A stretch of 51,739 nucleotides of DNA from sequence record NC_049822.1; one strand, 5' to 3'. Numbering within the stretch: position 1 is the stretch's first letter; every line of letters begins with the position of its first letter. The DNA comes from Escherichia phage vB_EcoS_G29-2. Positions 140 through 51,605 of the stretch are shown one piece after another. The position numbers and the translations under genes are program-made. The notes under the pieces were generated by a model. It did no database searches and was not told the origin of the DNA. It worked only from the letters and a program-made list of their open reading frames with translations.

Positions 140-300
140 AAATTTATATATATACCCATAAAATCAATAAGTTAGTTATATATGTATTTATATTTGTTAT
201 TTACTGTTATGCTCGTTCTGTGGGTATATGGTGGTGTGGTATTGTTTTTGGTGATATGTATGCGTGGTTGTATACTTTTTAATCAATGGTAATGCGGGGT
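140..300. repeat. AT/TG-rich non-coding element, copy A (homologous to 29770-29935)
   Basis: shared blocks AAATCAATAAGTTAG, TATTTATATTTGTT, TGTGG/TGTGTG, TGGTTGT. Confidence 0.55.
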
Positions 301-456
301 GATTTTTGTATGTATATATATGGGGTAGCGGTAATCCTCCGTCAACCAGGTCAACAAGGTCACTTTTAGCTGTTAAACCAATAACTTAACCAGTGCATTT
401 TGTTATCTCTAAACGCGCCACATGCCAAAAATCGTTATTAAAACACAAAATATATT

Positions 457-486
457 GACATGTAGGAAAGGAAAGGCAATAATGCA
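457..486 (+). promoter_or_regulatory. sigma70-like promoter candidate (TTGACA -17/18- AATAAT)
   Basis: TTGACA at 457-462 and A/T-rich -10 near 480-486, upstream of first gene. Confidence 0.45.
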
Positions 487-3909: not shown

Positions 3910-4067
3910 CCTGGTTACTTTTAATCTTTGTCACAAGTTACAACTCCGCCGCTATTGAATCGCATGAGTTCCACGGCGAATCAAGATGTCAGGAAGCACG
4001 AAAGCAAGTTGTTCTCCACATGTCAGATAGTGGAAAAGATGTAACGGCGTTATGTGTCCGTAAATAG
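3906..4067 (+). CDS. small hypothetical protein with hydrophobic N-terminus
   Basis: ATG overlaps upstream stop (ATGA); stop embedded in motif copy at 4064. Confidence 0.4.
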   Translation: MTWLLLIFVTSYNSAAIESHEFHGESRCQEARKQVVLHMSDSGKDVTALCVRK

Positions 4068-4695: not shown

Positions 4696-4833
4696 ATGAA
4701 GATGCGAAACTTCGAAAAAATCGTAACCAAAAAGAAGCGCTACAGCTATGACGAGCACCGCGAGATGAATCAACGCTATCGCAAGAAGCCACAGCGCCCA
4801 GGTAAACATTCAAGCAGACATGGAGAAAACTAA
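4696..4833 (+). CDS. small basic protein (45 aa)
   Basis: not in ORF track (<60 aa); RBS AGGAG 6 nt upstream; fills gap before kinase gene. Confidence 0.3.
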   Translation: MKMRNFEKIVTKKKRYSYDEHREMNQRYRKKPQRPGKHSSRHGEN

Positions 4834-6479: not shown

Positions 6480-6767
6480 ATGGCTAAAAGCAATCGTAAG
6501 ATGTTGATTAACGCATTCGAAAAGGCAGCGCTTGAGCGTGGTTGGAATGACTCATTTCACACGGCAAACTGTATCCGACGTTACGGATTCAAGAATTGCC
6601 GCTCCTGGGCGCGTCAAATGGCTTCATGGTATGATTTTGATGCGCATTATCTTGATATGGATTGCGCCCTAGTCGAAATGATTGAGCAGGCAGCGCTAGA
6701 GGATAGACCGTTGACGCAATCTGATTTTGACGATTTTGTTCGCGATGAAATCTATTACATGAGCTAA
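6480..6767 (+). CDS. hypothetical protein
   Basis: RBS AAAGGAGGAAA; stop in motif copy at 6766. Confidence 0.55.
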   Translation: MAKSNRKMLINAFEKAALERGWNDSFHTANCIRRYGFKNCRSWARQMASWYDFDAHYLDMDCALVEMIEQAALEDRPLTQSDFDDFVRDEIYYMS

Positions 6768-6811
6768 TAGCACTTTTTGTTAAAACTTCCGCGAGGGCAT
6801 TTGTTAAAGTG
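6766..6811 (+). promoter_or_regulatory. conserved motif promoter (weak -10)
   Basis: motif present; -10 region TAAAGT less canonical. Confidence 0.4.
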
Positions 6812-7572: not shown

Positions 7573-7650
7573 TCGACGGAGTGGGATTGCGCTAAAGTTG
7601 CAACGCTTAACAACTTTCGTAAGTTGCTCGACGATTTTTAATTAAAATTG

Positions 7651-7698
7651 AATGCCTCATACAGCGAACAGGACGCATTTTGACGAGGCATTTTTTAG
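7651..7698 (+). terminator. rho-independent terminator
   Basis: stem ATGCCTC/GAGGCAT with T-run. Confidence 0.5.
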
Positions 7699-7711
7699 GT
7701 AAGGTGATTCA

Positions 7712-7840
7712 ATGGATAACTACATAAAACCGTCGCAGCGGTGCGCACAGAAGCAAGAGGAAGCATTAGAACGCGGCGATACTGAAACGGCAATGCACTA
7801 TTTCGAAATGTACAACTTGTGGAAGGGTAGAGGTCTGTAA
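7712..7840 (+). CDS. small hypothetical protein (42 aa)
   Basis: not in track; RBS AAGGTGA; follows terminator 7651-7698; TAATG overlap with next gene. Confidence 0.35.
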   Translation: MDNYIKPSQRCAQKQEEALERGDTETAMHYFEMYNLWKGRGL

Positions 7841-8070
7841 TGTTTGGAATGAACGAGGCACAATTCAACGCTGCAAAACGCCAGGCTAAGAAGTGCGGCG
7901 AGGCAATGAAAGCGGATGTTGAAAAGCGCGGAAAGTATGTTGATGAAGTTATGAAGGGCATTATTGCCGAACATTATCAGCCAGTTGCGCCAATGCTGAC
8001 AATTACCCAATTCATCTGGTTGTGTGGTTATCTTCGTGGGCGATGGGGAAACGCATTTGACCGCGAATGA
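7840..8070 (+). CDS. hypothetical protein
   Basis: 76-aa ORF. Confidence 0.5.
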   Translation: MFGMNEAQFNAAKRQAKKCGEAMKADVEKRGKYVDEVMKGIIAEHYQPVAPMLTITQFIWLCGYLRGRWGNAFDRE

Positions 8071-8216
8071 TTGACAACGATTTCCTGATTGGATAGCATA
8101 TCAATCGTTTACATAAGAGCGGCGTTAGTGCCGAACGGGTGGCGCGGTTGCCACGCAACAACGGCGATATGCAGGTTTTTACCGTAAGACGTATCGCCTT
8201 TTTTATAGGTGAATAT

Positions 8217-8450
8217 ATGGAAAAGTACAAATTAACTTTCATGTTTAATAGTATGGTGATGAATCCCTTAAATGGTTACGCTTGCAATAGCTTTTCTGTT
8301 ACCGTGAATGAGGATGAAATTGATGATGATGGCAAATTCATTCGAATTGGTGAATACTTGTACCCCGTGCACAATATCAATTGCATCAAACGCGAGATCG
8401 TAAAAGATGAAGTACAAGGTAAGGTTGACGATCAGGAGAATGGGGCGTAA
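8217..8450 (+). CDS. hypothetical protein
   Basis: start chosen downstream of terminator-like hairpin 8151-8208; track ORF 8139-8450 would span it. Confidence 0.4.
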   Translation: MEKYKLTFMFNSMVMNPLNGYACNSFSVTVNEDEIDDDGKFIRIGEYLYPVHNINCIKREIVKDEVQGKVDDQENGA

Positions 8451-8595
8451 TTGCTCGTCATGCAAACAAAGTTTTGAGTGTGAAGTTGAAGCGCGAGGAG
8501 AGCTTGAGGCGGCAGCAAAAGCAAAAGAGCTGTCCGGCGCTAATCAAGACACTCACCAGTTTTCAATAGATCTTGTAAGGAAGATACAATGTTAA
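8440..8595 (+). CDS. small Cys-containing hypothetical protein
   Basis: RBS AGGAGA before ATG 8440; alternative start 8407. Confidence 0.35.
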   Translation: MGRNCSSCKQSFECEVEARGELEAAAKAKELSGANQDTHQFSIDLVRKIQC

Positions 8596-8822
8596 ACTTA
8601 ATTTCTGCTTTTATTATTGGTTTTGTTTTTGCTGTAATTATTTTGCTTGTCGCATCGGAAAAAATTTGCAAATTTCTTTCTAAGAACGGTAAGTTTGCAA
8701 GCGTGACATGGAATAACAAGATGCAGCGATGGGATGTTCGCGGTCACTATCTGACGATTGGTAGCAAAATCCATCAGCACCTGAAGAATCAAGAAGATGA
8801 AAAAGTAAAATACAAGTATTGA
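8589..8822 (+). CDS. small membrane protein
   Basis: RBS AAGGAAG; N-terminal TM LISAFIIGFVFAVIILLVA; followed by terminator. Confidence 0.5.
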   Translation: MLNLISAFIIGFVFAVIILLVASEKICKFLSKNGKFASVTWNNKMQRWDVRGHYLTIGSKIHQHLKNQEDEKVKYKY

Positions 8823-8828
8823 CCAACT

Positions 8829-8853
8829 ACCCGCCAAATGGCGGGTTTTTTAT
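8829..8853 (+). terminator. rho-independent terminator (end of early region)
   Basis: CCCGCC-AAAT-GGCGGG + TTTTTTATT. Confidence 0.75.
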
Positions 8854-8901
8854 TGCCTGCAATTTGTCTATAATGAGGCTTTGTTATAAGGAGGGCGCAT
8901 T

Positions 8902-9423
8902 ATGGCTAAAAACGTTGAGCCAGCAGTAAAGGCTTGCAATTTTAAAAAACTATATAATAAGCAATATGGCGATATTGCAAAAATGACAAAGGCGCACAAG
9001 TACACGCCGGAACAGGTGTTTGATCTGGCTGTGCGTTACTTTACGTGGGCCGAGGAAAACCATATACAGGCTGCGGAAACTGCATCCTTTCAGGGTGATG
9101 TATACGAAAGCAAGATTCACAAGCCGCGCGTGTTCACCTTAAATGGATTCCGCTTATTCGCTGGGCTTTCTGCTTCCGTTCTTGAAAAATGGCGACGCGA
9201 GCCAGGATTCAGCGATGTTATGGACTTTATCGACGGCGTTGTTTATGAACAAAAATTTCAGCTTGCTGCAAACAATATTGTTAACGCTGGATTCATTGGT
9301 AAAGAGATCGGCATTGAAAAGCCAGCAACCGTAACCATTGAGAATAACACAAGCGCAAGCGTTGACGCTGTAACGGCGGAGGAAGTCAAAGAGGCGGTAA
9401 TTGACATTCTGGAGAAGATATAA
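8902..9423 (+). CDS. terminase small subunit
   Basis: motif FTLNGFRLFAGLSASVLEKWRRE typical of TerS DNA-binding region; immediately upstream of TerL. Confidence 0.75.
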   Translation: MAKNVEPAVKACNFKKLYNKQYGDIAKMTKAHKYTPEQVFDLAVRYFTWAEENHIQAAETASFQGDVYESKIHKPRVFTLNGFRLFAGLSASVLEKWRREPGFSDVMDFIDGVVYEQKFQLAANNIVNAGFIGKEIGIEKPATVTIENNTSASVDAVTAEEVKEAVIDILEKI

Positions 9424-18942: not shown

Positions 18943-18968
18943 AGGGGCGTTGCGCCCCTTTTTTTGTT
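18943..18968 (+). terminator. rho-independent terminator after major tail gene
   Basis: AAGGGGCG-TT-GCGCCCCTT + TTTTTTTG. Confidence 0.75.
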
Positions 18969-19003
18969 ACTGTACAATCATGCTACACGATTCATAATCA
19001 ATT

Positions 19004-22734: not shown

Positions 22735-22759
22735 AGCCGCCTTTGTGCGGCTTTTTTAT
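22735..22759 (+). terminator. rho-independent terminator
   Basis: GCCGC-CTTTGT-GCGGC + TTTTTTATT. Confidence 0.7.
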
Positions 22760-22791
22760 TGATGATACAATGTACGAAAGGAGGTGCAATT

Positions 22792-24869: not shown

Positions 24870-24897
24870 AGTCGCGCGTTGCGCGGCTTTTTTTTTG
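24870..24897 (+). terminator. rho-independent terminator before J gene
   Basis: GC-rich hairpin GTCGCGCG..CGCGGC + T9. Confidence 0.6.
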
Positions 24898-24941
24898 CCC
24901 GTATAATTCAACAAATCAAATAGCACAAAAGGTGAAAAAGC

Positions 24942-40640: not shown

Positions 40641-41046
40641 TAAAGGCGATTATCTGGAGTTTTACGAAAGAGATCCGACGGATACGCTAAAAGAGGAATC
40701 ACACCAGATCGGGGCGTTTCAATGGTTGACTTATGCTTACCCTGAATTGCTGGCATGGCATACGAAAAACGAGGGCGACAAGGGGATCGCCACCGCAATG
40801 ATGGATCAGCAAGCCGGACTCGTTAAGGGCGTAAGTGATTTTATCATCCTGATTGGATTAAAAGGCCGTTATCCGTTTGCAGCAATTGAGATGAAGCGCG
40901 TCAATAAGTCTGGAAAGGGTAAGGCTTCACCAGTCAGTAAGGAGCAAAAAGCCTTCTTACGACGTGTGCGCGAGCTTGGCGGATTCGCTGCCGTAACATA
41001 CGGATATAAGCAATTCATGATCGCTGTAGAATACATGATGAAATAG
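40627..41046 (+). CDS. VRR-NUC domain nuclease
   Basis: PD-(D/E)xK-like SDFIILIG...AIEMKR; start overlaps helicase stop. Confidence 0.6.
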   Translation: MAMTDKGDYLEFYERDPTDTLKEESHQIGAFQWLTYAYPELLAWHTKNEGDKGIATAMMDQQAGLVKGVSDFIILIGLKGRYPFAAIEMKRVNKSGKGKASPVSKEQKAFLRRVRELGGFAAVTYGYKQFMIAVEYMMK

Positions 41047-41088
41047 CACTTTTTGTTAAAACAGGCGCGAAGGATTGCGCCATAATAA
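41042..41088 (+). promoter_or_regulatory. conserved motif promoter (hairpin GGCGC/GCGCC, -10 CATAAT)
   Basis: motif then 19 bp then ATAATA. Confidence 0.55.
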
Positions 41089-45282: not shown

Positions 45283-45328
45283 AAATATACCCGATACGAG
45301 ATCGGGAGTTTTAACAAAAAGTGCTATT
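45283..45328 (-). promoter_or_regulatory. conserved motif promoter (hairpin CCCGAT/ATCGGG, -10 ATATTT)
   Basis: minus-strand motif then 19 bp. Confidence 0.5.
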
Positions 45329-50684: not shown

Positions 50685-50729
50685 AATGTACAGGAATACG
50701 AGGATTGAGTTTTAACAAAAAGTGCTATT
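50685..50729 (-). promoter_or_regulatory. conserved motif promoter (-10 TACATT)
   Basis: motif then 18 bp then TACATT; followed by conserved leader. Confidence 0.5.
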
Positions 50730-51560: not shown

Positions 51561-51605
51561 AATGTACCCGATCAGGGCAATTCAGTTTTAACAAAAAGTG
51601 CTATT
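51561..51605 (-). promoter_or_regulatory. conserved motif promoter (-10 TACATT)
   Basis: motif then 18 bp then TACATT; drives leftward operon from 51523. Confidence 0.5.

What the first reader, a model, noticed from the sequence alone, without database searches (positions are those of the whole stretch)
8071..8215. Non-coding stretch with promoter-like and terminator-like elements (candidate small RNA or attenuator)
TTGACA at 8078 is followed by a hairpin GGCGATA...TATCGCC plus TTTTTTAT at about 8160-8208, with no convincing ORF start in between. The track ORF 8139-8450 would have to span the terminator.
Basis: seen in the sequence. Interest (0 to 1): 0.35.

Follow-up and report, generated by a model that had tools for sequence, protein, structure and literature searches.

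The report
Conserved structured leader RNA, T1-like phages
The stretch is a real non-coding unit of a T1-like phage: a conserved host-type promoter drives a roughly 100-base structured RNA ending in a terminator, and the RNA core is shared across the phage family but matches no RNA family in Rfam 15.

Summary
Observation confirmed. The window is a T1-like phage (Drexlerviridae, close to Hanrivervirus). Between an upstream 76-aa gene (stop 8068-8070) and the real start of the next gene (ATG 8217) lie:
- a sigma-70 promoter (TTGACA 8071-8076, 17 nt, TAGCAT 8094-8099);
- a conserved single-stranded 5' segment (8106-8119);
- two short hairpins (SL1 8120-8133, SL2 8139-8154);
- a third hairpin (8163-8198) followed by six U (8199-8204), i.e. 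an intrinsic terminator.

All three helices show compensatory base changes across relatives. There are 34 G.U pairs and no A.C pairs, so the structure is an RNA on the + strand. The promoter, 5' segment, SL1 and SL2 recur once per genome at the same place in T1, TLS, Rogunavirus and Webervirus. The U-tract is clade-specific, and some lineages carry tRNA genes downstream of the core.

There is no Rfam match, no conserved ORF, and no mention in the papers searched.

Best reading: a promoter-proximal regulatory leader. Its default product here is a ~100-nt RNA, and its terminator must be read through to express the three downstream small genes. Whether read-through is regulated, or the short RNA also acts in trans, cannot be settled by computation.

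The parts
7840..8070 (+). Upstream 76-aa gene (phrog_303; some depositors call it 'inducer of pleiotropic effects'). Its TGA stop (8068-8070) abuts the -35 hexamer.
8071..8076 (+). -35 hexamer TTGACA. It is TTGAC-N in nearly all relatives and TTGCAT in one Rogunavirus group.
8085..8092 (+). Conserved spacer motif CTGATTGG (family consensus CTGAnnGG). In many relatives its last bases give a TGn extended -10.
   Evidence: the extended -10 reading is inference
8094..8099 (+). -10 hexamer TAGCAT, 17 nt after the -35. Relatives have TAACAT, TAACCT, TAGTAT or TAGATT.
8106..8119 (+). Conserved, predicted single-stranded 5' segment CGUUUACAUAAGAG (family consensus CGU-rr-AC-r-n-AAGAG). The transcription start is inferred at about 8105-8107.
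   Evidence: the start site is inferred from its distance to the -10
8120..8133 (+). SL1: CGGC / GCCG stem with a 6-nt variable loop.
   Evidence: 94.6% paired, 3 of 4 pairs with compensatory changes
8134..8138 (+). Conserved linker AACGG (family consensus AACGCG; the last G pairs in SL2).
8139..8154 (+). SL2: GUGGC / GCCAC stem, loop GCGGUU (family consensus GCGrWW).
   Evidence: 100% paired, 4 of 5 pairs compensatory; also predicted independently by RNAalifold
8155..8162 (+). A/C-rich linker GCAACAAC.
8163..8198 (+). SL3, the terminator hairpin. The 9-bp stem is 8163-8171 / 8190-8198, with an inner GG(U)/(A)CC helix at 8174-8176 / 8181-8183. The 3' side of the internal loop, CCGUAAGAC (8182-8190), is nearly invariant. 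The apex accepts a covarying 17-18-nt hairpin insertion in Warwickvirus, JLBYU41 and grams.
8199..8206 (+). U-tract UUUUUUAU. It is 5-9 U in Hanrivervirus, Warwickvirus and part of Henuseptimavirus, 4 U in others, and absent in the T1 and TLS types.
8207..8212 (+). Shine-Dalgarno AGGTGA of the downstream gene.
8217..8450 (+). First downstream gene, 77 aa. The true start is ATG 8217. It has no promoter of its own, so it is expressed only by read-through of SL3.
8407..8595 (+). 62-aa CxxC protein (phrog_2919). It is found downstream of the leader in 41 distinct forms across the lineages sampled, and lies directly after it in several.
8589..8822 (+). 77-aa membrane protein (DUF7299), the last gene of the cassette.
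8829..8851 (+). Canonical intrinsic terminator ending the cassette, just before the small terminase gene (8902). A TATAAT without a -35 follows at 8869-8874.

Best explanation
This is a promoter-proximal regulatory leader RNA of a sigma-70 transcription unit: promoter 8071-8099, leader 8106-8204, three small genes 8217-8822, terminator 8829-8846.

Host RNA polymerase starts at about 8106. It transcribes a conserved single-stranded 5' segment and two short hairpins (SL1, SL2), then meets a third hairpin followed by a U-tract.

The default product is therefore a roughly 100-nt non-coding RNA. The three downstream genes, whose ribosome-binding site begins 2 nt after the U-tract region, are made only by polymerases that read through. 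SL3 thus acts as an attenuator.

The family-wide conserved module (5' segment, SL1, AACGnG linker, SL2) is most likely the recognition platform that sets or regulates read-through. This would work either by binding a phage or host factor (as a nut site does) or by acting on the polymerase itself.

Shown: the promoter and RNA structure are conserved, the element is on the + strand, it is single-copy and non-coding, and the downstream genes depend on read-through.
Inferred: that the terminator works in vivo, that read-through is regulated rather than simply leaky, and what binds SL1/SL2.
For: - Promoter hexamers, spacing and register are conserved across Tempevirinae, T1, Rogunavirinae and Webervirus, while the adjacent spacer and discriminator bases vary.
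- SL1/SL2 core in 37 diverse sequences: 97.6% of cells paired against 68.6% in shuffles and 19-49% when partners are slid; 100 double-change cells against 31 expected; 7 of 9 pairs compensatory.
- SL3 in 26 sequences: 98.7% paired, 6 of 9 pairs compensatory; RNAalifold finds SL2 and SL3 unaided.
- 34 G.U against 0 A.C pairs in one alignment, and 10 against 2 in the other, fix the strand as +.
- A covariance model of the core finds one copy in the window (8106-8160, 61 bits, E about 2e-14; the next hit scores 8 bits). It finds copies at the same position relative to the terminase gene in relatives left out of the model.
- Only 2 nt separate the U-tract region from the Shine-Dalgarno of gene 8217, so the cassette has no promoter of its own.
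- The core is kept in lineages where it is an ordinary 5' UTR without a U-tract (T1, TLS) and where tRNA genes follow it. This favours a function exerted in cis on the transcript or on the polymerase.
- A second terminator lies just before the small terminase gene in the window, T1 and Sweeny records and in the TLS supplement, so read-through control could reach further downstream.
Against: - There are no expression data. The start site, termination efficiency and any regulation are all inferred.
- No antiterminator-like protein was recognised among the ten neighbouring proteins scanned; all have unknown function.
- No conserved alternative (antiterminator) pairing exists. The SL1-3'/SL3-5' alternative predicted for the window does not covary in the clade where SL1 changed.
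- A TATAAT after the 8829 terminator, and similar -10-like elements after late terminators, suggest the late genes have their own promoters. This weakens any need for long-range antitermination.
- A strong promoter plus a strong terminator is equally what a stand-alone small RNA gene looks like.
Confidence: 0.45

Rival explanations
1. The functional product is the terminated ~100-nt RNA itself. It would be an early, abundant, trans-acting small RNA or RNA-protein component, pairing through its conserved single-stranded 5' segment or titrating a host RNA-binding protein. Expression of the downstream genes would be just leak-through.
For: - It has its own consensus-like promoter and a strong terminator with 6-9 U in this clade.
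- A conserved unpaired 5' segment (8106-8119) and A/C-rich linkers look like seed or Hfq-type ARN sites.
- tRNA genes, another class of stable RNA, have settled in the same transcription unit in Rogunavirinae and in one other locus.
- The unit is single-copy and more conserved than the flanking small genes.
Against: - T1- and TLS-type phages keep the core but have no U-tract. There it is a 5' UTR unless it is released by processing.
- Complementarity of the RNA to the rest of the phage genome is at chance level: two 12-mers against about 0.5 expected, one of them low-complexity.
- There is no similar sequence in 5,426 E. coli genomes, so it does not mimic a host RNA at the sequence level.
- Host targets could not be tested.
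Confidence: 0.25
2. The SL1-SL2 module is a processive antitermination element. It would be protein-independent like HK022 put, or protein-dependent like lambda nut. Polymerase starting at 8071 would become termination-resistant, reading through SL3, the 8829 terminator and the many terminators of the structural-gene region, and so timing the switch to late expression.
For: - Two hairpins lie directly after a sigma-70 promoter, followed by terminators, at the boundary between the early small-gene cluster and the packaging and structural genes.
- At least five intrinsic terminators lie between 11 and 20 kb on the + strand, and terminator-like repeats continue to 32 kb.
- The TLS authors found only three intergenic sigma-70 promoters against 21 terminators.
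- The long untranslated stretches with tRNA genes after the core in Rogunavirinae would benefit from protection against termination.
Against: - The hairpins are far smaller (4-5 bp) than put's two long, bulged stems of about 70 nt.
- There is no boxA on the transcribed strand; only its reverse complement TAAGAGCG occurs, and only in one clade.
- There is no GNRA-like boxB loop, and no recognisable N or Q protein.
- The element is single-copy.
- -10-like elements follow several late terminators, which suggests re-initiation rather than read-through.
Confidence: 0.15
3. The leader is a post-transcriptional element. It would be a processing or stability determinant, or a translational operator, for the cassette mRNA. 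For example, it could be a binding site for the 62-aa CxxC protein found downstream of it in all lineages sampled. The U-tract in this clade would be a secondary tuning device.
For: - The 62-aa protein is found downstream of the leader in 41 distinct forms across all lineages sampled, and is directly adjacent in several.
- The last hairpin, with the conserved CCGUAA loop motif, sits 8-10 nt before the Shine-Dalgarno in T1- and TLS-type phages.
- The outer stem of SL3 covaries freely, while its internal-loop sequence UGCAGG...CCGUAAGAC is nearly invariant. This is what a sequence-specific binding site would look like.
Against: - The protein's predicted beta-beta-alpha-beta fold (pLDDT 84.7) has only weak, generic structural matches and no annotated relative.
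- The 14-nt unpaired 5' end is the opposite of a classic 5' stabilising hairpin.
- In Webervirus the CCGUAA hairpin is absent, yet SL1 and SL2 remain.
Confidence: 0.1
4. Nothing specific: SL3 is merely the terminator of the upstream early operon, and the TTGACA/TAGCAT pair is a chance match.
For: - Promoter-like matches occur at the background rate (9 found, 9.0 expected).
- No terminator separates the upstream genes from this region, so upstream transcripts would indeed stop at SL3.
Against: - The hexamers are conserved in register in sequences whose small terminase is only about 50% identical.
- SL1 and SL2 covary strongly.
- T1 and TLS keep the promoter and core without any U-tract.
Confidence: 0.03

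Closest known systems
Lambda late promoter PR' with terminator tR' (the short '6S' late leader transcript; StxS in Stx phages)
   Same: - One sigma-70 promoter per genome, placed ahead of the packaging and structural genes.
- An intrinsic terminator follows about 100-200 nt later.
- The default product is a short non-coding RNA, and the downstream genes need read-through. (Recalled knowledge of lambda.)
   Different: - No Q-family protein was recognised nearby.
- The initially transcribed region has no conserved -10-like pause element.
- The conserved part here is an RNA structure (SL1/SL2) with covariation, which qut sites do not have.
- The terminator is missing in T1- and TLS-type relatives.
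HK022 put RNAs (putL/putR)
   Same: Two stem-loops are transcribed immediately after an early sigma-70 promoter, with terminators downstream.
   Different: - put is about 70 nt, with two long bulged stems and a triplex, and occurs twice per genome.
- Here the stems are 4-5 bp and the core is about 50 nt and single-copy.
- No sequence or model-based relationship could be tested.
Lambda N-utilisation (nut) sites: boxA plus boxB
   Same: A conserved linear element (AACGnG) lies next to a 5-bp hairpin with a semi-conserved loop. It sits promoter-proximal and upstream of terminators.
   Different: - There is no boxA (CGCUCUUA) on the RNA strand.
- The loop is GCGrWW rather than a GNRA-like pentaloop.
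- No arginine-rich N-like protein was identified.
- There is one site, not two.
Hfq-type trans-acting small RNAs with their own promoter and Rho-independent terminator
   Same: It has its own promoter, is about 100 nt long, has an unpaired conserved 5' segment, and ends in a terminal hairpin with 6 or more U.
   Different: - The terminator is not conserved across the family.
- No target complementarity above chance was found within the phage.
- Hfq binding is untested.
Stable small RNAs next to tRNA genes in T4 (species 1 and 2 RNAs)
   Same: A phage-encoded structured RNA of unknown function shares a transcription unit with tRNA genes. Here this is seen in Rogunavirinae. (The T4 case is recalled knowledge.)
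   Different: In this window no tRNA is present, and no sequence relationship is known.

Membership tests
Any Rfam 15 family | Score at or above the family's gathering threshold | tested here: not met
   No match in the whole window at the gathering threshold. With permissive filters on 7900-8400, only chance-level snoRNA-type hits appeared, E 0.19-9.5, none on 8106-8204.
Lambda Q / qut late-promoter system | A sigma-70 promoter followed within about 200 nt by an intrinsic terminator, ahead of the late genes | tested here: met
   Promoter 8071-8099, terminator 8163-8204, small terminase gene at 8902.
Lambda Q / qut late-promoter system | A Q-family antiterminator gene upstream of the promoter | tested here: not met
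   Ten flanking proteins were scanned against PHROGs and Pfam. All are families of unknown function and none is a Q family. Only the neighbours were scanned, not the whole genome.
Lambda Q / qut late-promoter system | A conserved -10-like sigma-dependent pause element in the initially transcribed region | tested here: not met
   The conserved segment is CGTrrACrnAAGAG. The best -10-like hexamer, CATAAG, lacks the final T and becomes CAGACG or CACAAG in T1 and Webervirus.
HK022 put RNA | Two stem-loops transcribed directly downstream of an early promoter | tested here: met
   SL1 and SL2 begin 14 nt after the inferred start.
HK022 put RNA | About 70 nt with two long, bulged stems (stem I forming a triplex), present as putL and putR | tested here: not met
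   Stems are 4 and 5 bp without bulges and the core is about 50 nt. The element is single-copy. put features were taken from PMC9378689.
HK022 put RNA | Protein-independent antitermination that depends on the beta' zinc-binding domain | not testable with these tools
   This needs in vitro transcription or rpoC mutants.
Lambda N / nut site | boxA (CGCUCUUA-like) on the transcript | tested here: not met
   Only the reverse complement (TAAGAGCG, 8114-8121) is present, and only in the clade with SL1 = CGGC.
Lambda N / nut site | boxB: a 5-bp stem with a GNRA-like purine pentaloop | tested here: not met
   SL2 has a 5-bp stem, but its 6-nt loop is GCGGUU (family consensus GCGrWW).
Trans-acting Hfq-type sRNA | Own promoter and a Rho-independent terminator with a long U-tail | tested here: met
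   Met in this window and its clade. Not met in T1- or TLS-type relatives.
Trans-acting Hfq-type sRNA | A conserved seed with complementary targets | tested here: inconclusive
   A conserved unpaired 5' segment exists. Complementarity within the phage is at chance level. Host targets were not searchable with short seeds.
Leader-peptide (ribosome-mediated) attenuator | A conserved short ORF in the leader and conserved alternative pairings | tested here: not met
   The ORF ending at CCG-UAA ranges from 1 to 36 codons, mostly without a start codon. The alternative pairing is not supported by covariation.

The most novel reading that the evidence does not exclude
The 5' segment-SL1-AACGnG-SL2 module would be a new class of nascent-RNA element that modifies host RNA polymerase, alone or with a small phage protein. 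It would control the early-to-late switch of T1-like phages, whose temporal regulation without any phage polymerase or sigma factor remains unexplained.
Probability: 0.15. Interest if true: 0.8.

Novelty: new variant of a known kind. Interest (0 to 1): 0.5.

Why it matters
T1-like phages (Drexlerviridae) are classical, very common coliphages and Klebsiella phages. They encode no RNA polymerase or sigma factor, and it is still unclear how they order gene expression. The TLS re-annotation found three sigma-70 promoters, 21 terminators and an unexplained 21-nt repeat.

This locus is a single-copy, family-wide conserved promoter plus structured RNA, sitting at the boundary between the early small genes and the packaging genes. 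It is absent from Rfam, from the GenBank annotations seen, and from the papers searched. That makes it a concrete, cheap-to-test candidate regulator.

The clade-specific gain of a terminator, and of tRNA genes, on a fixed RNA core also shows how one leader can be re-used. Even if it turns out to be a plain attenuator, it corrects a recurrent mis-annotation: the ORF extended across the terminator, as in pSf-1 gp57.

Tried and rejected
- **Coding.** The track ORF GTG 8139-8450 and the minus-strand ORF 8012-8242 are rejected. Close relatives differ by 1-, 2-, 4- and 17/18-nt indels in loops and in the U-tract, and substitutions are compensatory rather than codon-like. A simple test for stop-free frames is uninformative for a 95-nt GC-rich stretch.
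- **Leader peptide ending at the conserved CCG-UAA.** Not conserved.
- **tRNA or tmRNA.** None in the window.
- **Rfam.** No match.
- **Alternative antiterminator pairings.** Two were considered: SL1 3' arm with SL3 5' arm, and the 5' CGUUUAC with GUAAGACG. Both are present in the window only and have no covariation support.
- **Minus-strand RNA or DNA cruciform.** 34 G.U against 0 A.C pairs argue against both.
- **Lambda boxA.** TAAGAGCG is the reverse complement and is clade-specific, so it is treated as coincidence.
- **RfaH ops element.** The 8/12 similarity lies in the variable SL1 loop, so it is rejected.
- **K-turn or loop-E reading of the SL3 internal loop.** The sequence does not fit (inspection only).
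- **Targets of the RNA within the phage.** Complementarity is at chance level.
- **Host mimicry.** No blastn match in E. coli genomes.
- **Function of the neighbouring proteins.** PHROGs and Pfam give only unknown-function families. The AF2 model of the 62-aa protein gives only weak, generic fold matches.
- **Literature.** Nine searches found no description of this RNA or promoter. The TLS supplement lists other promoters only.
- **A loose regex anchored on the RNA alone** gave mostly spurious hits and was discarded.
- **Scans of the genome and metagenome collections.** Not run. Any pattern general enough to reach distant relatives (about 14 specified bases) would give tens of thousands of chance matches.

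Full report
**What the window is.** Region 7600-8900 is 97% identical to Escherichia phage vB_Eco-B1.3 and 91-96% identical to many Hanrivervirus genomes. The window is therefore a T1-like virulent siphovirus (Drexlerviridae, Tempevirinae).
- Genes from 1 to about 33 kb run on the + strand: a cluster of small early genes up to 8070, three small genes at 8217-8822, then small terminase (8902), large terminase (9423) and the structural genes.

**The observation.** The sequence shows:
- TTGACA at 8071-8076, directly after the TGA stop (8068-8070) of a 76-aa gene;
- a 17-nt spacer, then TAGCAT at 8094-8099, a 10/12 match to consensus;
- the hairpin GGCGAUAUG (8163-8171) / CGUAUCGCC (8190-8198), followed by UUUUUU (8199-8204);
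- the Shine-Dalgarno AGGTGA at 8207-8212 and ATG at 8217.

The hairpin alone folds at -15.2 kcal/mol, z = -3.2. The whole 8106-8204 RNA folds as three successive hairpins. Promoter-like matches as such are at background frequency, so the sequence match alone proves nothing. The case rests on comparison with relatives.

**Conservation and covariation.**
- blastn finds the 186-nt stretch in 128 phage records, all covering at least 80% of it, at 75-98% identity.
- An alignment of 20 relatives showed an invariant -35, a conserved -10, variable bases around them, and then a block more conserved than the flanking genes.
- I then fetched the region upstream of the small terminase gene in T1, TLS, Henu7, JK06, Sweeny and PHB17 and in 80 IMG/VR contigs.
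- The same arrangement appears in 91 loci, with 77 distinct sequences: TTGAC-N, a spacer containing CTGAnnGG, a -10, 5-7 variable bases, CGTrrACrnAAGAG, SL1, AACGnG, SL2.
- On a MAFFT alignment of 37 diverse cores, the two helices are 97.6% paired. This compares with 68.6% in column shuffles and 19-49% with slid partners. There are 100 double-change cells against 31 expected, and compensatory changes at 7 of 9 pairs.
- SL2 is written with eleven different stem sequences, for example GUGGC/GCCAC, GUGAC/GUCAC, GUAGC/GCUAC, GUGAGA/UCUCAC, CCAG/CUGG and CAUC/GAUG.
- In the 26 distinct sequences that have the third hairpin, its 9-bp stem is 98.7% paired, with compensatory changes at 6 pairs. RNAalifold predicts SL2 and SL3 on its own.
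- G.U pairs outnumber A.C pairs 34 to 0 and 10 to 2, so the structure belongs to an RNA read from the + strand.

**Copy number and distribution.**
- A covariance model of the core finds a single copy in the window: 8106-8160, 61 bits, with the next hit at 8 bits.
- It finds copies at the equivalent position in relatives not used to build it: two Rogunavirus groups, Webervirus and others.
- The promoter lies in register upstream of every such hit.

**Not coding.**
- Loops and the U-tract differ by 1, 2, 4 and 17-18 nt among close relatives.
- The small ORF ending at the conserved CCG-UAA is not conserved.
- Most depositors start the downstream gene at the ATG equivalent to 8217.
- There is no tRNA and no Rfam match, even at E up to 10.

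**What varies.** The 3' module is lineage-specific.
- Hanrivervirus, Warwickvirus and part of Henuseptimavirus have the long SL3 followed by 5-9 U. Others have 4 U.
- T1- and TLS-type phages instead have extra hairpins and a final 5-bp hairpin whose loop ends in CCGUAA. This is followed directly by the Shine-Dalgarno, with no U-tract.
- Webervirus has only SL1 and SL2, with a short U-run after SL2.
- The motif CCGUAAG is shared between the T1/TLS loop and the 3' internal loop of SL3. The outer stem of SL3 covaries freely, while that internal-loop sequence is nearly invariant.
- Warwickvirus, JLBYU41 and grams carry a covarying 17-18-nt hairpin inserted at the SL3 apex.
- In Rogunavirinae and one other lineage, tRNA genes (Arg, Trp, Val, Ser) lie 130-250 nt downstream of the core, before the next protein gene.
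- The 62-aa CxxC protein (window 8407-8595) is found downstream of the leader in 41 distinct forms across all lineages sampled.

**How it most likely works.**
- *Shown by anatomy.* The three genes 8217-8822 have no room for a promoter of their own, because the Shine-Dalgarno starts 2 nt after the U-tract region. Whatever transcribes them must pass SL3. If SL3 terminates, as its 9-bp G+C-rich base and six U predict, it is an attenuator. The default product of the 8071 promoter is then an RNA of about 100 nt.
- *Inferred.* The 5' segment-SL1-linker-SL2 module is the part under the strongest and broadest selection. It is retained where it is merely a 5' UTR (T1, TLS) and where tRNAs follow it. 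It therefore most likely acts in cis, on the transcript or on the transcribing polymerase, to set or regulate read-through.
- *Mechanism.* I found no conserved alternative pairing, which argues against a classical switch between terminator and antiterminator. A factor-binding or polymerase-binding mechanism fits better.

**Rivals.**
- *Trans-acting small RNA.* This remains a serious rival. Promoter plus terminator plus an unpaired conserved 5' end is exactly that anatomy. But the terminator is not conserved family-wide, and I found no above-chance targets in the phage and no host look-alike.
- *Long-range, put- or nut-like antitermination.* The position of the element and the many terminators of the late region make this attractive. 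But the element fails the defining features of put and nut that could be tested (and the membership table). In addition, -10-like elements following the late terminators suggest re-initiation.
- *Post-transcriptional operator,* for example for the 62-aa protein. This is possible, but that protein's predicted fold gave no functional lead.

**Comparison with what is known.**
- It works like lambda PR'-tR' in outline, and like put or nut in placement. It is a member of none of these families, nor of any Rfam family.
- None of the annotated GenBank regions fetched marks a feature here. The T1 record annotates terminators at 4001-4034 and 8322-8344 but nothing at about 7587-7755.
- The TLS re-annotation lists other promoters only.
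- Nine full-text searches found nothing on it.
- I therefore rate it a new variant of a known kind: a phage promoter-proximal leader or attenuator RNA.

**Limits.**
- Everything about expression is inferred, since there are no transcript data.
- Model E-values are rough because calibration was shortened.
- The sequences compared are related by descent, so shuffle controls overstate significance. The slid-partner controls and the number of distinct stem sequences are the stronger evidence.

Noticed in passing
window, 23 sites, e.g. 1255-1273, 1719-1737, 6767-6785, 41043-41061 (+); 45309-45327, 50710-50728, 51586-51604 (-): The 21-nt Drexlerviridae direct repeat AAATAGCACTTTTTGTTAAAA occurs 23 times against 2.8 expected. 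Where gene orientation is clear it points the same way as the flanking genes. In several copies it is followed by a variable G+C hairpin and then ATAAT. The repeat was reported for TLS with unknown function, and it is not present at the 8071 locus.
   Followed up: partly
window 8846-8874, 18947-18978, 22740-22771, 24876-24907: Intrinsic terminators on the + strand are followed 10-20 nt later by a -10-like hexamer (TATAAT or TACAAT) without a recognisable -35. This suggests coupled terminator and promoter modules in the late region.
   Followed up: partly
L035 1597-1672; L068 2018-2172; L070 1714-1867; L089 1548-1624; L050 1849-1936: In Rogunavirinae and one other lineage, tRNA genes (Arg-CCU/UCU, Trp, Val, Ser) lie in the same transcription unit, 130-250 nt downstream of the conserved leader core.
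   Followed up: partly
window 8077-8083 and 8103-8109: A 7-bp inverted repeat AACGATT / AATCGTT brackets the -10 hexamer. Comparable but different repeats occur in some relatives (TCACGG/CCGTGA, CGGCGT/ACGCCG). Across 46 promoters the enrichment is marginal: mean 3.93 against 3.62 +/- 0.12 in permutations.
   Followed up: partly
window 8407-8595: A 62-aa protein (phrog_2919) with a conserved CxxC and Thr-His. It seems restricted to Drexlerviridae: all hits lie on contigs of about 50 kb. AF2 predicts a beta-beta-alpha-beta fold (pLDDT 84.7). Structural matches are weak only: archaeal eL20/LX, PurS, and B. subtilis RNA polymerase epsilon subunit at TM about 0.5.
   Followed up: partly
window 455-483: The best sigma-70 match in the window (TTGACA, 17 nt, AATAAT; 11/12) lies at the left end. 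It is probably the counterpart of TLS promoter P01 and the start of early transcription.
   Followed up: no
window 4696-4833: A 45-aa, very basic Lys/Arg-rich early protein with a weak Pfam hit to T7 gene 1.1 protein (E = 0.015). It is noted only as the kind of protein that could bind RNA.
   Followed up: no
window 34396-34548: A run of overlapping direct repeats with 9-nt spacing (CAC/CAG/CAA-rich) inside a minus-strand ORF region. It probably encodes a repetitive Gly-rich protein segment.
   Followed up: no
window 161-265 and 29803-29907: Two copies of a 105-nt sequence at 73% identity, 29.6 kb apart.
   Followed up: no
phage records MG0656xx (e.g. L021): About twenty GenBank records named 'Campylobacter phage', marked UNVERIFIED with host C. 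jejuni, are Hanrivervirus genomes carrying the same leader. They are presumably coliphage contaminants or mis-assignments.
   Followed up: no
L003 1597-1899 (Shigella phage pSf-1 gp57): The pSf-1 record annotates the long ORF that runs across the terminator, the equivalent of window 8139-8450. This is a likely start-codon mis-annotation.
   Followed up: partly
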